From Buchnera aphidicola (Floraphis choui) (GTDB taxonomy: Bacteria > Pseudomonadota > Gammaproteobacteria > Enterobacterales > Enterobacteriaceae): 64,000 bases of DNA. Each line of letters begins with the position of its first letter. Position 1 is the first letter of the stretch. The position numbers and the translations under genes are program-made. Under the pieces are notes generated by a model that saw only the letters and a list, made by a program, of their open reading frames with translations, was not told where the DNA came from and did not search any database. The DNA is taken from NCBI GenBank assembly GCA_039830045.1, contig CP140044.1, positions 150,452 to 214,451 on the forward strand. The letters run 5' to 3'. Below are positions 3,400 through 47,466 of this stretch, in pieces.

Positions 3400-4344
3400 T
3401 TAACTTTTATTATAGTAGTTATTAAAATATGAATTAGCTTGTTTAATGTCGTATTTAATTTGTTGTTGTAAGCTTTTTATAGAAGAAAAGAATATTTCAT
3501 TTCGAATTTTTTTAAGAAATATTACTTCTATATGTTCTTTATACAAATTTATTGAGACATTTATCAAATGTACTTCAAGTTTTTTTTCTATTCCAAGCAT
3601 GGTGGGTTGAGTACCAATATTTGCTACCCCAAAAAATGTTTTTTTTGTTGAAAAAACAAATACTTTTACTATAAAAACTCCATTAATTAGCATTCTTTTT
3701 TTGCATAAAATAATATTAGCTGTTGGAAACCCTATCATAGTTCCGTTTTGTTTTCCATAAGTAACCTTTCCAGATATACTAAAAGAACGTCCTAATAGCA
3801 TTTTAGCTAGTTTTAAATCGTGATTTTTTAGTGCTGTTCTAATAGCTGTACTACTTATTTTAATTCCATTAATTTTAAGTATTTTAGTTGTATAAACTTC
3901 AAAATTATGAGTTTTTCCCATGTCTTTTAGTAGAGTAACGTTTCCTTTCCTATGTATTCCGAAACGAAAGTTTTCTCCAATTGCTAAAAAACTAACATTT
4001 AATTTTTTAAGTATTATTCTAATAACAAAATCTATGGGATTTAGTAAGGAAAAACTATGGTTAAAGTAAATGCATAATATAGAATCGATATTCCAGTTAG
4101 ATAAATATCTTACTTTTTCTCGAAATTTCATCAAACGAATAGGAGGATCGTTAGGACAAAAAAATTCTTGAGGTTGTGGCTCAAAAATAGCAACAGTTAT
4201 TGGTTTGTTGTATTCTTTTTTTTTCTTACATACCAAATTTAGTAATTTTTGGTGACCTAAATGTACTCCATCAAAATTTCCTATAGTTAATATACAAGAG
4301 TTATCTTGAAGTTTTAGATTATTTATATTTCGTATTAGTTTCAT
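3400..4344 (-). CDS. ribF: bifunctional riboflavin kinase / FMN adenylyltransferase
   Basis: 314-aa ORF. N-terminus MKLIR...[10 protein letters not shown] and C-terminal riboflavin kinase region ([16 protein letters not shown]) are colinear with E. coli RibF. Located upstream of ileS as in E. coli. Confidence 0.95.
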
Positions 4345-4555
4345 ATTAATAAATAATGAATTGTGGTATAGATTTTGTTAAAATTAGAGAAACAATGTTT
4401 TGAATTATTGATAATTTTTTGGTAATTATTTAGAATCATAATCTATTATGTCAAAATAATATATGAGATATAATAAATATATATTTTATTTTTTTATATT
4501 ATGTTTATAAATGAATTTTTAATTATTTATATAGGGCAATTTAGGAGTATATATT

Positions 4556-4819
4556 TTGGCAAATTTAAAGTCATCTAAAAAAAGTGCAATAAAATCTAAA
4601 CATAGGAAGTTTTGTAATTCTAGTAAACGATCTAAAATTAGAACTTTTATAAAAAAAGTGAATATTAAAATATTATCAGGAAATAAAGAACAAGCTAAGT
4701 TAGAGTTTGATAAAACTTGTCCTATTTTAGATAGATATGCTACTAAAGGTTTAATTCATAAAAATAAAGCAGCAAGGCATAAATCAAATTTAAAACGTAA
4801 GATAAAATTATTAGCATAA
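4556..4819 (+). CDS. rpsT: 30S ribosomal protein S20
   Basis: 87-aa highly basic ORF (MANLKSSKKSAIKS...). Starts with TTG at 4556-4558, as E. coli rpsT does. Divergent from ribF as in E. coli. Confidence 0.95.
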   Translation: MANLKSSKKSAIKSKHRKFCNSSKRSKIRTFIKKVNIKILSGNKEQAKLEFDKTCPILDRYATKGLIHKNKAARHKSNLKRKIKLLA

Positions 4820-24989: not shown

Positions 24990-25466
24990 ATGAATACAAT
25001 AGATTATATTTCAATAATTATAATTATAGTTTCTACTATAATGAGTTTTTTTCGTGGATTTTTCCAAGAAATTATTTCTATTTTTGTTTGGGTAATAGGA
25101 ATGTACGTGTATTTTAGATATCATTATTTATTTTCTTTTTTTTCAATTTATATTCATAATATAATTATAAAATATATTATCAATTTTATATTATTTTTTA
25201 TTTTTTTATTATTCATTAAATTTGTATTGAATTATATAATGATAATTTTTGTGAAACAATTTCACTTATTTATATTTAATCAGGTTTTTGGAATATTATT
25301 CGGTTTTATAAGAGGTATACTAATTACTTGTATAATATTGTTTTTTTTAGAGTTTTCAACTAATTTTACAAATAGTAAAAGTTTTAGAAATTCGATATTA
25401 ATTCCTTATTACAATTATTTTATAAAAATATTTCTAAGAATTTTTATAAAAAATATTTTTATGTAA
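24990..25466 (+). CDS. cvpA: colicin V production / membrane integrity protein CvpA
   Basis: 158-aa four-helix membrane ORF. The N-terminus (IDYISIIIIIVSTIMSFFRGFFQE) parallels E. coli CvpA (IDYAIIAVIAFSSLVSLIRGFVRE). Downstream of folC as in E. coli, but with dedD missing. Confidence 0.85.
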   Translation: MNTIDYISIIIIIVSTIMSFFRGFFQEIISIFVWVIGMYVYFRYHYLFSFFSIYIHNIIIKYIINFILFFIFLLFIKFVLNYIMIIFVKQFHLFIFNQVFGILFGFIRGILITCIILFFLEFSTNFTNSKSFRNSILIPYYNYFIKIFLRIFIKNIFM

Positions 25467-25619: not shown

Positions 25620-26567
25620 TTAATGTTCAAACATAGCAGATATAGATTCTTCATTGCTAATTCTACGAATAGCTTCTGCTAACATTCCAGCTAATGTTAG
25701 AGTCCTAACATTGGAAAGCATTTGAATGGTTGTTGGTAAAGGAATTGTGTCACATACTATTACTTCATCAATATTTGAATTTTTTAAATTTTTAGCTGCA
25801 TTTCCTGAAAAAATAGGATGTGTTGCATATGCAAACACTCGCTTTGCTCCTCTATCTTTTAGTGCTTCGGCTGCTTTACATAATGTTCCACCTGTATCAA
25901 TCATATCGTCTACTAAAATACAATCGCGATTAGCAACATCTCCGATTATATGCATGACTTGAGATACATTAGTATTAGGTCTTCGTTTATCAATAATCGC
26001 CATATCTGTATCGTGCAATAGTTTTGCAATAGCTCTAGCTCTAACTACTCCTCCAATGTCTGGAGAGACAATTATAGGATTTTTAAGATCTATTTGTAAC
26101 ATATCTTCTAACAGAATTAAGCTTCCAAATACATTATCAACAGGAACATCAAAAAATCCTTGAATTTGTTCAGCATGAAGATCTACTGTTAGTACTCGAT
26201 CTATTCCAATACTAGAAAAAAAATCAGCGATTACTTTTGCAGTAATTGGAACTCGAGATGATCGAACTCGACGATCTTGTCTAGCGTATCCAAAATAAGG
26301 AATGACAGCTGTAATTCGCCCCGCAGATGCTCGTCTTAAAGCGTCTACCATTACAATTAGCTCCATAAGATTATCGTTAGTAGGATAACATGTGGATTGA
26401 ATGATAAATACATCATTTCCACGAACATTTTCGTTAATTTGAACACTAATTTCGCCATCACTAAATTTTCCAACTAATGCATTTCCTAATTTCATGTATA
26501 ATCTGTTGGCAATAGACTTTGCTAAATTTGGAACAGAATTTCCAGAAAATAATTTCATATCAGGCAC
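25620..26567 (-). CDS. prs: ribose-phosphate pyrophosphokinase
   Basis: 315-aa ORF nearly identical in long blocks to E. coli Prs ([31 protein letters not shown], ends ISAMFEH). GTG start giving (M)PDMKLF as in E. coli. Confidence 0.98.
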
Positions 26568-26625
26568 GAGAAAACCTCAGTATGTAAGATATAATCTTGA
26601 TAATTATAATATTAAAATATAGAGT

Positions 26626-27491
26626 TTAAAATAAATAATATGATTTCAATTGTCTATTTAATATTGAAGTATTAGTACTACTTGCAATAAATCCATAAAC
26701 GTTTTTAGGTAGTATTGAAAGAATTTTATTTGCATCTTGTTTTGAATGAAATTCAGAAAAAATACAAGATCCTGTTCCTGTTATACGAGAAGGTGCATAT
26801 TGAGACAACCATGCAATTAAATTATTTATTTTATAAAATTTTTGTTTTATAAGCTTTTCACAATCGTTTTTAAATGGATCCTTCAATAATGAATTAATAC
26901 ATTTTTTTGGAGAGTTTCTTATTAATTGTGGATGAGAAAAAATTTGTTTAGTAGAGATTTTAATTTTTGGATAAGTAATCAAGTACCATCGTTTTTTTGT
27001 TGTTATAGGATGTAGTATATTCCCTATACCCTCTGCTATTGATGTTTTTCCTATTATGAATAAAGGAATATCTGCTCCTAACTCTTTCCCGATGTTTATT
27101 AATTGTGAAGGTTTAAATTTTATATTCCATAATTCGTTTAATGTAAGTAAAATTGTTGCAGCATTAGATGATCCTCCTCCTAATCCTCCTCCTATTGGTA
27201 TATTTTTTTTTATATAAATGTTAGCTCCCAATTTTGATGAATAATTTTTTAAGCTTCGTGCTTTTTTTTTAGTAATTTTGCAGCATGAATAATTATATTT
27301 TGAGAATGAGGTATATGAGGTATATATGTTAATAAATTTATATTTCCACTATTATTTGGAGTTATATGTATTATATCTCCATAATTTAGTAATTGAAATA
27401 GTGTTTGAATATTATGATAACCATCAGAACGCATTTCTGTAATATTTAAAAAAAGATTGATTTTTGCTGGAGAAAACCAAATAGTTTGCAT
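26626..27491 (-). pseudogene. ispE: 4-diphosphocytidyl-2-C-methyl-D-erythritol kinase (IspE), reading frame broken at an A9 tract
   Basis: N-terminal ORF from ATG 27491 ([14 protein letters not shown]...) stops at 27249. The body (GANIYIKKNIPIGGGLGGGSSNAA... to stop 26626) lies in another frame. The frames meet at T9 on the + strand (27262-27270), and A10 would restore an IspE colinear with E. coli. It may still be functional through slippage. Confidence 0.9.
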
Positions 27492-28066
27492 TACTTTAAA
27501 ATCCACTTATTAATATATAAAATGATAGAATTCTATTCTTGTACTATTTTAATTAAATTTGGAAAAAATGGAATAGTTTTATTTTTATAATATAAATATG
27601 TAATGCTTCATAGTTTTTTATAAATATATTTCTATGTTCTTAGATAAGAATATTTTTTAAAAGTATATTTATGTATTTCGTCAGGTAACTTAGTAATCCA
27701 TTGGTTAAAATAGTTTAATGGTATAATTAAACCGGTTATTTTTAATAAAGTTATTTCTGGCTTTTTACTAATAGATAGTAACTTTTTGTTATCTATAACT
27801 TGAAGGGTATTTTCAATAATAATTTTGAATTATATTTGCCTAATGAGATCAATAAATATTATTGAATAGTGTTGGAGGGAAGATTGTTCAAAATAGCTGA
27901 AAATTTTAATTCGATTTGACAAAAATAATAAACAACTATTAATTTGAATATTATTTATTTTTTTGAGATCGTGTTGTTGATTATTCCATAAATAATTATT
28001 TTTTAATATTTTAGGTATTATAGAACAGGTATTATTTAATAAACTGAGTGTTATAATAAAAAATTT
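27491..28066 (-). pseudogene. lolB: outer-membrane lipoprotein receptor LolB, pseudogene
   Basis: One continuous minus-strand frame of 191 codons is colinear with E. coli LolB. Matches include lipobox-like LLNNTCS; LWNNQQHDLKKINNIQ vs QWRQHQQDVRNLNQYQ; ITGLIIPLNYFNQWI vs LTGMPIPLNSLRQWI; and terminal NKWILK* vs DNWIVK*. It is interrupted by in-frame TAA (27830-27832), TAG (27632-27634), TGA (27608-27610) and TAG (27533-27535). No start codon follows the upstream stop at 28067-28069. Confidence 0.85.
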
Positions 28067-42972: not shown

Positions 42973-43707
42973 ATGAATAATAACGAAAAACAGTTAATAG
43001 AAAGCTTATTTTCTCGATTACATAAAACTGAAATTGAATCTTCTGATCGAGATAATGTAGCTGAAAAATTAATTAAAGATTTATTAGAAAAATACCCGAA
43101 TTCACCTTATTACATGGCACAAACGATTTTAATTCAAGAAACGGCAATAAAGAAATTAAACGAACAAATTTCTTTGTTAGATAGTAAATCTGATAAAAAT
43201 CAGAAAGACAAAAAAGATACGTCATCTACAGGTTTTTTATCTAGTTTATTCGGATCAAAAAAAACCCAAAATGTCTTGGATTCGCATTCAAATAACACTT
43301 TAAATAAACCTTATAACAAAATTCAAGATTCTAATGTTAGTTCTTTTCCTTCACAAGTTCACTCTAGTGCTATACCTCAATCGGGAACTATAAATAATAC
43401 AAATGGATTTCTTAGTGGAGCACTTCAAACTGCTGCAGGTGTTGCTGGTGGTGTTGTTATGGCAAATATGTTAATGAATCTTTTTCAGAATAAAAAACCT
43501 GAAGAAGAGATAATAGATGCAGTACATCATATTGACTCTTCTCATACGGGATTAAATTCTACAGATAGTGATCCTATACATAGTCAATATATTAGTGATA
43601 ATAATAGTACGCATGTAGATGATAACATTGAAGATTATAATCGATCAGATTATGATGTTAGTGATGATGATGACTGCAATGCTTTTGAAGACGATAATTT
43701 TATTTAA
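42973..43707 (+). CDS. conserved protein of unknown function, DUF2076-like
   Basis: 244-aa ORF. The N-terminal about 65 aa (EKQLIESLFSRL...SPYYMAQTILIQETAIKKLNEQI) resemble my recollection of the DUF2076/COG3416 family. It continues with a polar low-complexity linker, a Gly/Ala-rich hydrophobic segment (GFLSGALQTAAGVAGGVVMANMLMNLF) and a very acidic tail. The family assignment comes from memory only. Confidence 0.6.
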   Translation: MNNNEKQLIESLFSRLHKTEIESSDRDNVAEKLIKDLLEKYPNSPYYMAQTILIQETAIKKLNEQISLLDSKSDKNQKDKKDTSSTGFLSSLFGSKKTQNVLDSHSNNTLNKPYNKIQDSNVSSFPSQVHSSAIPQSGTINNTNGFLSGALQTAAGVAGGVVMANMLMNLFQNKKPEEEIIDAVHHIDSSHTGLNSTDSDPIHSQYISDNNSTHVDDNIEDYNRSDYDVSDDDDCNAFEDDNFI

Positions 43708-46926: not shown

Positions 46927-47103
46927 TCTTTTAATATTTAAACAAATTGTATATTAATAATAATAGAATTTTAATATAAAATATGCTCCTAAATATATTT
47001 AGATAAAATAATTTTATCTTAATTAAAATTTTTATCTATTTTTTATAGAATGTTATTCTATTTTAAAAGTAAAAAGATTTGAGTTTATACTAGTTTTTAT
47101 TTG

Positions 47104-47466
47104 TGGAGCTGGCGGGATTCGAACCCGCGTCCAAAATTTTTACGACTTCAGTACTACATGCTTAGTCTATTACATTGTTGTTTTTATCTATAAACGTATA
47201 GACGCGCTATAGATTTTCGCTTATTATAATTTTAACGATTAAAGTAATAAGCATAACTTTAATTCGCGATCTCTTTCTAATTAACCTCTAACTTTTTTAT
47301 TTTAAGAGAAAAATAAAAAATGAGGGCTTTAAATTCAGTTTATTAAGCTGCTAAAGCATAAGTTTTATTTTTTGCTATTATAATTTTACGGCTTTTAACG
47401 AGGCAAACCGCTCCTCGGCATGCACTTTTAGTTTTCAATAATTTTGTCGAATCCAAAATCAGCCCC
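47104..47466 (-). ncRNA. ssrA: tmRNA (SsrA)
   Basis: The minus strand starts GGGGCUGAUUUUGGAUUCGAC and ends GGACGCGGGUUCGAAUCCCGCCAGCUCCA (tRNA-Ala-like acceptor and T arm). Tag ORF GCA AAA AAU AAA ACU UAU GCU UUA GCA GCU UAA UAA at 47375..47340 encodes AKNKTYALAA. The genomic sequence after the discriminator is CAA, so the CCA end is not fully encoded. Confidence 0.93.

What the first reader, a model, noticed from the sequence alone, without database searches (positions are those of the whole stretch)
27249..27272. ispE is split exactly at an A9 tract; one extra A restores a full-length kinase
On the minus strand the N-terminal ORF (ATG 27491, [14 protein letters not shown]...[12 protein letters not shown]) terminates at 27249-27251. 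The GHMP-kinase body (GANIYIKKNIPIGGGLGGGSSNAA..., stop at 26626) continues in another frame. The two frames meet at nine A residues in mRNA sense (T9 on the given strand, 27262-27270). Reading the tract as A10 gives ...[35 protein letters not shown].... That has the same 14-residue spacing between LL and GAN as E. coli IspE as I recall it (...[32 protein letters not shown]...). I saw no other lesion in either half. This is the signature described for Buchnera and Blochmannia, where RNA-polymerase slippage on long poly(A) tracts yields a fraction of in-frame transcripts that rescue a frameshifted gene. IspE is a required step of the MEP isoprenoid pathway, so the gene is either being lost or is kept alive by slippage.
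Basis: partly seen in the sequence, partly recalled or inferred. Interest (0 to 1): 0.7.

Follow-up and report, generated by a model that had tools for sequence, protein, structure and literature searches.

The report
Slippage-rescued frameshifted ispE in Buchnera
An aphid symbiont's isoprenoid-pathway gene (ispE) is broken by one missing A in a run of A's, yet related symbionts carry the same break in an otherwise intact gene, so it is probably still read through by polymerase or ribosome slippage, a trick already known in such bacteria.

Summary
The window is Buchnera aphidicola from a Floraphis gall aphid. On the minus strand, ispE (ATG 27491, stop 26626) changes frame at an A9 tract (27262-27270). 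The 0-frame stop is at 27249-27251. Adding one A gives a 288-aa IspE that matches TIGR00154 end to end and aligns without gaps to solved E. coli-type IspE.

Orthologous loci changed the picture. The same A9 sits at the same site in Buchnera of Kaburagia (2 assemblies), Schlechtendalia chinensis-type (4 datasets, two from outside that study) and Nurudea yanoniella (2). S. peitan has A10, and Melaphis has AAAAAGAAAA, both in frame. N. shiraii is in frame there but is shifted at a different A9 tract. In every broken copy one extra A restores a 282-288-aa protein with no other lesion, and dN/dS is 0.15-0.28, as for intact copies.

Truly dead genes look different. The neighbouring lolB has 4 stops. 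ispE in the Baizongia symbiont is shredded, and in Chaetogeoica it is deleted.

An assembly error is therefore unlikely, and so is a plain pseudogene. The best reading is a tolerated genomic frameshift rescued by transcriptional slippage. The in-phase A_AAA_AAG heptamer could add -1 ribosomal frameshifting. This is a new member of a known kind and has no expression data yet.

The parts
26626..27491 (-). ispE, frameshifted. It is full length (288 aa) if the tract is read as A10.
   Evidence: TIGR00154 scores 276 bits against a 138.7 cutoff. Catalytic K10, D141 and the PIGGGLGGGSSNAA motif are conserved in alignment A2.
27262..27270 (-). A9 tract in the mRNA (T9 on the + strand) where the frame changes. 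The ancestral or orthologous state is 10 nt (A10 in S. peitan, A5GA4 in Melaphis).
27261..27267 (-). A_AAA_AAG heptamer in the 0 frame (codons CTA AAA AAA AAG). This is a dnaX-type -1 slippery site, and its shifted product is identical to that of an A10 mRNA.
   Evidence: codon phasing. The same phasing occurs in Kaburagia, S. chinensis and N. yanoniella.
27249..27251 (-). 0-frame stop codon TAA, three codons after the tract. Unshifted translation ends here in an 80-aa peptide.
   Evidence: The stop is at the same place in all A9 lineages.
27252..27491 (-). N-terminal segment of IspE (80 codons in the 0 frame). It carries the catalytic Lys10.
   Evidence: (TIGR00154 positions 1-78).
26626..27231 (-). 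IspE body in the shifted frame: GHMP motif, Asp141 and C-terminal domain. The listed TTG start is not conserved (TTA in relatives).
   Evidence: (TIGR00154 positions 87-293).
27203..27211 (-). Second A9 tract, in frame within the IspE body (IKKN). It is conserved as A9 in intact orthologues.
27494..28063 (-). lolB pseudogene immediately upstream (ancestral operon lolB-ispE-prs). It has 4 in-frame stops and serves as a local example of true decay.
   Evidence: lolB is intact in Melaphis and S. peitan.
25620..26567 (-). prs, the intact downstream gene, used to identify the organism and to fetch orthologous loci.

Best explanation
The genome of this Buchnera really carries A9 where its ancestor had a 10-nt tract, so ispE is out of frame in the DNA. 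The gene is nevertheless still functional and under purifying selection.

Full-length IspE would be made from the fraction of expression events that add one base's worth of frame at the tract. The main route proposed is backward slippage of RNA polymerase on the T9 template. This yields A10 mRNAs, and also A13, which adds one lysine in a linker whose length varies among homologues.

A second route may contribute. The tract forms the heptamer A_AAA_AAG in phase, so a -1 ribosomal slip would give the identical peptide ...[11 protein letters not shown]....

Unshifted ribosomes stop three codons later and release an 80-aa fragment. Catalytic Lys10 lies before the shift. Asp141 and the ATP-binding GLGGGSSNAA loop lie after it. 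Only the fused chain can therefore be active.

Shown here: the lesion, its repeated occurrence in relatives, and the intactness and constraint of both halves. Inferred: that slippage supplies the protein, and how much of it.
For: **The lesion is real, not an assembly error**
- The identical A9 at the identical site occurs in K. rhusicola x2, S. chinensis CP140041, CP140039, the independent S. chinensis assembly CP011299, a JGI metagenome contig, and N. yanoniella x2.
- The same study's pipeline (Illumina 2x150, SPAdes) assembled A10 at this site in S. peitan.
- It also assembled in-frame A10, T10 and A12 tracts in this window.

**Every broken copy has a single lesion**
- In all broken copies one added A restores 282-288 aa with no other lesion.
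- N. shiraii is in frame at this tract (AAGAAAAAAG) but is shifted at another A9 tract, nt 648. Logan contigs from raw reads reproduce that shift.

**Selection**
- dN/dS is 0.15-0.28 for all pairs, including pairs where both copies are A9.
- For the out-of-frame body it is 0.19-0.25, against 0.28 for the intact pair Melaphis vs S. peitan.
- Floraphis dN to the outgroup (0.244) is no higher than that of the intact copies (0.255 and 0.267).
- The two A9 Kaburagia copies differ by 6 synonymous and 3 non-synonymous changes. The binomial p is 0.004 against neutrality.

**Neutral expectation**
- About 54 new stop codons are expected per unit of neutral distance.
- P(no stop) is below 0.005 at distance 0.1, whereas lineages differ by dS 0.5-1.0.

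**Dead-gene controls at the same locus**
- lolB has 4 stops here and is nearly unrecognisable in Kaburagia, Nurudea and S. chinensis.
- ispE of Baizongia Buchnera is spread over 3 frames with about 10 stops.

**Literature**
- Frameshifts in poly(A) tracts of Buchnera and Blochmannia are conserved between species and give mixed mRNA pools (PMC3017870, citing Tamas 2008 and Wernegreen 2010).
- 12-50% of transcripts were reported corrected (PMC5009743).
- In Buchnera, transcription insertions concentrate in A/T runs and rise exponentially with run length (PMC5574713).
Against: - There are no RNA or protein data for this organism.
- Traverse and Ochman found no frame-restoring transcription error in Buchnera of A. 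pisum (PMC5574713).
- ispE is dispensable in some Fordini Buchnera. It is deleted in Chaetogeoica and degraded in Baizongia.
- The adjacent lolB is dead in this genome.
- dN/dS between lineages averages over time spent before any frameshift arose. The backbone of the Melaphidina tree is unresolved with my data (bootstrap 7-24%). I therefore cannot tell an ancient shared A9 from 3-4 parallel deletions.
- The second Floraphis assembly could not be fetched.
- Whether the rest of the MEP pathway is intact in this genome was not tested.
Confidence: 0.65

Rival explanations
1. -1 ribosomal frameshifting is the main rescue route, not RNA polymerase slippage. On the A9 mRNA, tandem tRNA-Lys slippage on A_AAA_AAG moves ribosomes into the body frame and gives the same protein.
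For: - The heptamer is in the correct phase (CTA AAA AAA AAG) here and in Kaburagia, S. chinensis and N. yanoniella.
- A_AAA_AAG is the E. coli dnaX slippery site (PMC1851650).
- The shifted product equals the A10 product.
Against: - No Shine-Dalgarno-like sequence lies upstream.
- No structure lies downstream. The fold z-score is 0.33 and the consensus fold energy is -1.9 kcal/mol. In dnaX both stimulators are needed for high efficiency.
- The N. shiraii frameshift sits at A_AAA_AAT followed by T6. From general knowledge this is a much weaker -1 site, but it is an equally good polymerase slippage site.
- The G after the tract is in any case fixed by the conserved Ala codon.
Confidence: 0.12
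2. A plain, recently inactivated pseudogene. ispE has just been knocked out in the Floraphis lineage and will decay as it did in Baizongia and Chaetogeoica symbionts. Any slippage product is irrelevant.
For: - ispE is deleted in Chaetogeoica and degraded in Baizongia.
- The neighbouring lolB is dead here.
- Homopolymer indels are the usual first step of gene erosion in these symbionts (PMC3017870).
- Most Eriosomatinae Buchnera have lost peptidoglycan genes, which are a major isoprenoid consumer (PMC9116674).
Against: - It requires five lineages to be caught independently in the brief one-lesion stage. The mean neutral waiting time to a stop is about 0.02 substitutions per site, against branches of about 0.3.
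- dN/dS is not raised and the Floraphis rate is not accelerated.
- The Kaburagia pair shows constraint after the shift.
- mrcB (PBP1b), a lipid II user, is intact in this window.
Confidence: 0.15
3. A sequencing or assembly homopolymer error. The true genome has A10 and the gene is simply intact.
For: - The source is a metagenome-derived Illumina/SPAdes assembly.
- The window has a single such break.
- The second Floraphis assembly could not be inspected.
Against: - The same A9 appears in nine other sequences. These include CP011299 from another project, a JGI metagenome contig, and separately collected hosts.
- The same pipeline produced A10 at this site in S. peitan.
- It also kept the A10, T10 and A12 tracts in frame in this window.
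Confidence: 0.04
4. A split enzyme. The 80-aa N-terminal peptide and a separately initiated 201-aa body associate to form an active kinase.
For: A TTG at 27231 opens the body ORF.
Against: - That codon is TTA (Leu), not a start codon, in Kaburagia, S. chinensis and S. peitan.
- No ribosome-binding site precedes it.
- The residues between the 0-frame stop and that codon ([11 protein letters not shown]) would be lost, yet they remain open and conserved in the shifted frame.
Confidence: 0.01

Closest known systems
Poly(A)-tract frameshifted genes of Buchnera and Blochmannia rescued by transcriptional slippage (Tamas et al. 2008 PNAS; Wernegreen et al. [quoted passage not shown] I read these only through PMC3017870 and PMC5009743.
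   Same: - A single 1-nt indel inside an A run of 9 nt or more in mRNA sense.
- The gene is otherwise intact.
- The same frameshift is seen in different species.
- There is no rate acceleration.
- The host is an AT-rich obligate insect endosymbiont.
   Different: - The gene (ispE) and the clade (Rhus-gall aphid Buchnera) do not appear in the papers I could read. The genome paper does not mention ispE, frameshifts or pseudogenes.
- The site toggles among A9, A10 and G-interrupted forms within one subtribe.
- One species carries a second-site A9 frameshift, and the sister subtribe has lost the gene outright.
- No transcript data exist here.
E. coli dnaX programmed -1 ribosomal frameshift (A_AAA_AAG)
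   Same: The slippery heptamer is identical and in the correct phase, and the shift direction is the same (-1).
   Different: - No upstream Shine-Dalgarno stimulator and no downstream hairpin.
- Here the shifted product is the only useful one. In dnaX both products are used, and the shifted one is the shorter.
Thermus thermophilus dnaX and IS-element transcriptional slippage on A9/T9 runs (Atkins et al. 2016 review, PMC5009743; Baranov et al. 2005, PMC1088944)
   Same: RNA polymerase realignment on a run of 9 A/T produces mRNAs with extra bases and so gives access to another frame.
   Different: Those cases are programmed to make two products. This one looks like a tolerated or compensated lesion in a housekeeping enzyme gene.
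Eroded ispE of Buchnera str. Bp (Baizongia pistaciae) and the lolB pseudogene in this window
   Same: Same locus and same clade. The likely first step is also a homopolymer indel or point lesion.
   Different: Those carry many stops and frame changes. The Floraphis ispE carries exactly one repairable lesion.

Membership tests
IspE (CDP-ME kinase, GHMP superfamily, TIGR00154) | Full-length match above the curated cutoff | tested here: met
   After +1 A the protein scores 276 bits against a cutoff of 138.7, covering model positions 1-293 of 294. E is 1e-88 with a gapless alignment over residues 1-281 to solved IspE chains 8qc7 and 1oj4.
IspE (CDP-ME kinase, GHMP superfamily, TIGR00154) | GHMP phosphate-binding motif and catalytic Lys10 and Asp141 (E. 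coli numbering, from general knowledge of the 1OJ4 structure) | tested here: met
   K10, D141 and G103-A112 are invariant columns in alignment A2.
IspE (CDP-ME kinase, GHMP superfamily, TIGR00154) | Uninterrupted reading frame in the genome | tested here: not met
   The A9 tract shifts the frame, and the 0-frame stop is at 27249-27251.
IspE (CDP-ME kinase, GHMP superfamily, TIGR00154) | Conserved synteny lolB-ispE-prs | tested here: met
   The window has prs, ispE and a lolB pseudogene in that order. The arrangement is the same in Melaphis and S. peitan.
Slippage-rescued poly(A) frameshift genes of insect endosymbionts | Single indel inside a homopolymer of 9 or more A in mRNA sense, gene otherwise intact | tested here: met
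Slippage-rescued poly(A) frameshift genes of insect endosymbionts | Frameshift shared by divergent strains or species without further degradation | tested here: met
   A9 is at the same site in four host lineages (10 sequences). Every copy is repaired by one A.
Slippage-rescued poly(A) frameshift genes of insect endosymbionts | Purifying selection persists in frameshifted lineages | tested here: met
   dN/dS is 0.15-0.28. The Kaburagia A9 pair has 3 non-synonymous against 6 synonymous changes, p = 0.004. Floraphis shows no rate acceleration. Caveat: the age of each A9 state is not resolved.
Slippage-rescued poly(A) frameshift genes of insect endosymbionts | Mixed transcript pool containing frame-corrected mRNAs | not testable with these tools
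   Needs cDNA sequencing of Floraphis bacteriocytes.
Slippage-rescued poly(A) frameshift genes of insect endosymbionts | Full-length protein produced | not testable with these tools
   Needs proteomics or a reporter assay.
Programmed -1 ribosomal frameshift (dnaX type) | X_XXY_YYZ slippery heptamer in the 0-frame phase | tested here: met
   A_AAA_AAG lies within CTA AAA AAA AAG.
Programmed -1 ribosomal frameshift (dnaX type) | Upstream Shine-Dalgarno-like stimulator about 10 nt 5' of the site | tested here: not met
   The upstream sequence CATGCTGCAAAATTACT has no GGAGG-like element in any lineage.
Programmed -1 ribosomal frameshift (dnaX type) | Downstream stem-loop or pseudoknot 5-8 nt 3' of the site | tested here: not met
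   The minimum free energy is -4.2 kcal/mol with z = 0.33. The consensus structure energy is -1.9 kcal/mol.
Plain decaying pseudogene | Multiple disabling lesions and/or dN/dS near 1 | tested here: not met
   There is one lesion only, and dN/dS is about 0.2. Contrast the local lolB and ispE of Baizongia Buchnera.
Plain decaying pseudogene | Gene dispensable, as shown by loss in related lineages | tested here: met
   ispE is deleted in Chaetogeoica and degraded in Baizongia Buchnera.

The most novel reading that the evidence does not exclude
The A9/A10 tract is not just a tolerated lesion. It is a selected, heritable dosage switch for the MEP pathway. Replication slippage toggles the gene between full expression (A10 or G-locked) and low expression (A9, dependent on slippage). 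Lineages that dismantled envelope biogenesis (lolB lost) have settled on the low-expression allele and kept it for millions of years. On this reading ispE in Melaphidina Buchnera would be a true recoded gene with an attenuator function.
Probability: 0.15. Interest if true: 0.65.

Novelty: new member of a known kind. Interest (0 to 1): 0.45.

Why it matters
- **Annotation.** ispE is not called as a gene in any of the A9 assemblies I inspected, and the genome paper's main text never mentions ispE, frameshifts or pseudogenes. Metabolic reconstructions would therefore wrongly score the MEP isoprenoid pathway as broken in most Rhus-gall aphid Buchnera.
- **Evolution.** One site shows A9 in four lineages, A10 in one and G-interrupted forms in two. 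There is also a second-site A9 frameshift and complete loss in the sister subtribe. This gives a compact natural series for asking how long a slippage-dependent allele can persist and what decides between rescue and loss.
- **Mechanism.** The tract is both a polymerase slippage site and an in-phase dnaX-type heptamer. It is a clean test case for separating the two contributions in an endosymbiont.

Tried and rejected
- **Exact look-ups of the window's prs and prfA.** They found no indexed contig, so neither Floraphis assembly (CP140044, CP140037) could be fetched. Whether both carry A9 remains untested.
- **Absence of an IspE protein in the database.** I first took the lack of any >77% identical IspE as evidence that both Floraphis assemblies are frameshifted. 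I dropped this argument. cvpA is intact in the DNA yet uncalled in many of the same assemblies, so missing gene calls there are not informative.
- **Phylogeny to polarise A9 against A10.** The backbone is unresolved (bootstrap 7-24%), so the ancestral state is undecided.
- **Tamas 2008 and Wernegreen 2010.** They are not in the held library and are cited only through papers that describe them.
- **Search for -1 frameshift stimulators.** Nothing was found.
- **Promoter scan.** It found fewer sites than chance and is uninformative.
- **Literature on the isoprenoid pathway in Buchnera of Fordini.** Nothing usable was found.
- **Split-protein idea.** Rejected because the TTG start is not conserved.

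Full report
**1. What is in the window**

The window has 25.8% G+C. Its prs product (25620-26567, minus strand) is an exact match to the protein deposited for Buchnera aphidicola (Floraphis choui) in two assemblies. The genes I identified are all typical of Buchnera. They are lspA, ileS (by position), ribF, dnaJ, folC, cvpA (by homology), prs, ispE, prfA, prmC, sirB1, nadE, ackA, pta, nrdBA, gyrA, ahpC, ung, grpE, nadK, a Grx4 glutaredoxin, rnt, sodA, pth, ychF, thrCBA, hpt, dksA, truA and mrcB.

The source study sequenced whole aphids with Illumina NextSeq 2x150 and assembled with SPAdes. It reports two Floraphis symbiont genomes: CP140044 from F. choui and CP140037 from F. meitanensis (PMC11188193). 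Its main text does not mention ispE, frameshifts or pseudogenes.

**2.

- On the minus strand, ATG 27491 opens [14 protein letters not shown]...[12 protein letters not shown], and the stop is at 27249-27251.
- The GHMP-kinase body runs in another frame to the stop at 26626.
- The two frames meet at T9 on the + strand (27262-27270), which is A9 in the mRNA.
- Reading the tract as A10 gives one 288-aa ORF, and A7 gives 287 aa. A8 and A11 do not restore the frame.
- The restored protein scores 276 bits on TIGR00154 (cutoff 138.7) over model positions 1-293 of 294. The two fragments cover positions 1-78 and 87-293.
- The restored protein aligns without a gap over residues 1-281 to solved IspE chains 8qc7 and 1oj4, with E = 1e-88.
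- Lys10, Asp141 and the GLGGGSSNAA loop are invariant columns in a 13-sequence alignment. Lys10 lies before the shift and the other two lie after it.

**3. An assembly artefact is unlikely**

The window holds 23 homopolymers of 9 nt or more. Only this one sits where two long frames meet. The A10, T10 and A12 tracts are in frame inside intact genes.

The same lesion is also present in many other assemblies (section 4). These include S. chinensis CP011299 from another project and a JGI metagenome contig. At this very site the same pipeline produced A10 in S. peitan.

I could not fetch either Floraphis assembly. The tract length in the second Floraphis genome is therefore untested.

**4. Orthologous loci**

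I used prs homologues as handles and fetched the prfA-prs interval from related Buchnera.

| Host lineage (sequences) | State of the tract at nt 222 of ispE | ispE reading frame |
|---|---|---|
| Floraphis (this window) | A9 | shifted |
| K. rhusicola rhusicola, K. r. ensigallis | A9 | shifted |
| S. chinensis CP140041, CP011299, JGI 3300009471; CP140039 | A9 | shifted |
| N. yanoniella (2 individuals) | A9 (nt 225, one extra codon upstream) | shifted |
| S. peitan | A10 | intact |
| Melaphis rhois | AAAAAGAAAA | intact |
| N. shiraii | AAGAAAAAAG | in frame at this tract; shifted at an A9T6 tract at nt 648 |

Two Logan contigs assembled independently from raw reads reproduce the N. shiraii frameshift at nt 648.

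In every frameshifted copy, adding one A restores a 282-288-aa IspE with no further stop or shift. The codon phase is the same in all A9 lineages (..A AAA AAA AAG). In each, the 0-frame stop falls three codons after the tract.

**5. Evidence for constraint**

- After repair, pairwise dN/dS is 0.15-0.28 for all pairs. A9-A9 examples are Floraphis-Kaburagia 0.17 and Kaburagia-N. yanoniella 0.15.
- For the body that is out of frame in the DNA, dN/dS is 0.19-0.25. The intact pair Melaphis vs S. peitan gives 0.28.
- Floraphis dN to an outgroup copy (0.244) is not higher than that of the intact copies (0.255 and 0.267). This holds for both halves of the gene.
- From the distances, the S. chinensis (A9) branch is faster than S. 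peitan (A10) in both dN and dS. Its ratio is not raised (about 0.18 against 0.29, my arithmetic).
- The two Kaburagia copies both carry A9. They differ by 6 synonymous and 3 non-synonymous changes, where neutrality predicts about 79% non-synonymous (binomial p = 0.004).
- About 6% of possible point substitutions in this gene create a stop. A neutral copy would therefore gain roughly 54 stops per unit distance. P(no stop) is 0.07 at distance 0.05 and 0.005 at 0.1, whereas the lineages differ by dS 0.5-1.0.

**6. What true decay looks like at this locus**

- lolB lies immediately upstream (27494-28063) and has four in-frame stops at 47-51% identity to the intact LolB of Melaphis and S. peitan.
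- lolB is reduced to faint nucleotide traces in Kaburagia and N. yanoniella, and I could not detect it in S. chinensis.
- In Buchnera of Baizongia, ispE is spread over three frames with about ten stops.
- In Buchnera of Chaetogeoica, ispE is deleted, leaving a 340-bp spacer between lolB and prs.

So ispE can be lost in this tribe, and when it is lost the evidence is obvious.

**7. Mechanism**

The literature available to me says the following.

- Poly(A) frameshifts in Buchnera and Blochmannia can be conserved between species without degradation. Full-length product arises from a mixed mRNA pool made by transcriptional slippage (PMC3017870, describing Tamas 2008 and Wernegreen 2010).
- 12-50% of transcripts were corrected in the cases examined, and runs of 9 A/T suffice for slippage in bacteria (PMC5009743).
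- In Buchnera, transcription insertions are concentrated in A/T runs and rise exponentially with run length. That study saw no frame-restoring event (PMC5574713).

Backward slippage adding one A is the event needed here.

The tract is also an in-phase A_AAA_AAG heptamer, the dnaX -1 slippery site (PMC1851650). A -1 ribosomal shift gives exactly the same peptide. However, I found no upstream Shine-Dalgarno-like element and no downstream structure (z = 0.33, consensus energy -1.9 kcal/mol). The N. shiraii site (A_AAA_AAT followed by T6) is a good polymerase slippage site but, from general knowledge, a poor -1 ribosomal site.

I therefore rank polymerase slippage first and ribosomal slippage as a possible contributor.

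The tract lies in a linker that varies in length and is poorly conserved among homologues (alignment columns 84-92). Products from A7, A10 or A13 mRNAs should therefore all be tolerated. This last point is an inference.

**8. What remains open**

- The deep branches of the Melaphidina tree are unresolved with the three flanking genes I had (bootstrap 7-24%). A9 could be ancestral with three restorations, or derived three to four times in parallel. Either way the site has changed at least three times, and the A9 state has repeatedly persisted without secondary damage.
- I could not examine the other MEP genes of this genome.
- The need for IspE rests on indirect points. mrcB (PBP1b, a lipid II user) and lspA are intact in the window. 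A survey reports near-complete loss of peptidoglycan genes in Eriosomatinae Buchnera generally (PMC9116674).
- In the lineages sampled, intact lolB coincides exactly with uninterrupted ispE: 2 of 2, against 0 of 5 where lolB is lost. The exact test gives about 0.05 (my calculation). I cannot explain this. It may reflect lowered demand for the operon once envelope biogenesis was reduced.

**9. Verdict**

This is a real genomic poly(A) frameshift in an ispE gene that is still under selection. It is most likely expressed through slippage.

It is a new example of a known phenomenon, not a new kind of system. It is of moderate interest as an unusually well-replicated natural series, and as a correction to the gene annotation of these genomes.

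Noticed in passing
window 27494-28063 (-): lolB is a pseudogene with four in-frame stops and no frameshift. It is intact in Buchnera of Melaphis, S. peitan and Chaetogeoica, and almost erased in Kaburagia, N. yanoniella and S. chinensis.
   Followed up: yes
L002, L003 versus window, L005-L012: Within Melaphidina, intact lolB co-occurs exactly with uninterrupted ispE (Melaphis, S. peitan). Lost lolB co-occurs with frameshifted ispE in five lineages. The exact test gives about 0.05, and I have no explanation.
   Followed up: partly
L017-L019 (2661-3000) and L020 (about 2086-2930): ispE is completely deleted in Chaetogeoica Buchnera while lolB is kept. It is a multi-lesion pseudogene in Baizongia Buchnera (str. 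Bp). The gene is therefore dispensable in the sister subtribe Fordina.
   Followed up: yes
L008 (CP140039): The genome paper's Table 1 labels this assembly Nurudea ibofushi. At prfA-ispE-prs it is nearly identical to S. chinensis (CP140041, CP011299) and unlike the other Nurudea symbionts. This may be a sample or label mix-up.
   Followed up: partly
L005-L008, L010-L012 about 4100-4590; window 24990-25466 (+): cvpA is a clean 158-codon ORF in the DNA of every locus, but it is not called as a gene in many of the 2024 assemblies. The window's CvpA sequence is likewise absent from the protein collection. The annotation of these genomes has gaps.
   Followed up: partly
whole window (one search list): Of the 22 homopolymers of 9 nt or more that lie within genes, 20 read as poly(A) in the mRNA sense. 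All are in frame except ispE tract 1. The two exceptions are poly(U) tracts in a nuo membrane-subunit gene (20919, 20949). Each poly(A) tract is a potential source of out-of-frame transcripts.
   Followed up: partly
L012 2711-2740; L013, L014: The N. shiraii ispE frameshift lies at an A9T6 junction. An extra A or an extra T would both restore the frame. The extra A gives the better match to orthologues.
   Followed up: partly
window 42973-43707 (+): A 244-aa ORF between gyrA and ahpC has no NCBIfam match at E <= 1e-10.
   Followed up: no
window 47103-47466 (-): tmRNA gene with tag peptide AKNKTYALAA.
   Followed up: no
window 26603-26656 (-): Two promoter-like hexamer pairs lie just upstream of prs, inside or after the 3' end of ispE. 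They are consistent with prs being transcribed independently of ispE translation. The scan as a whole did not exceed chance.
   Followed up: no
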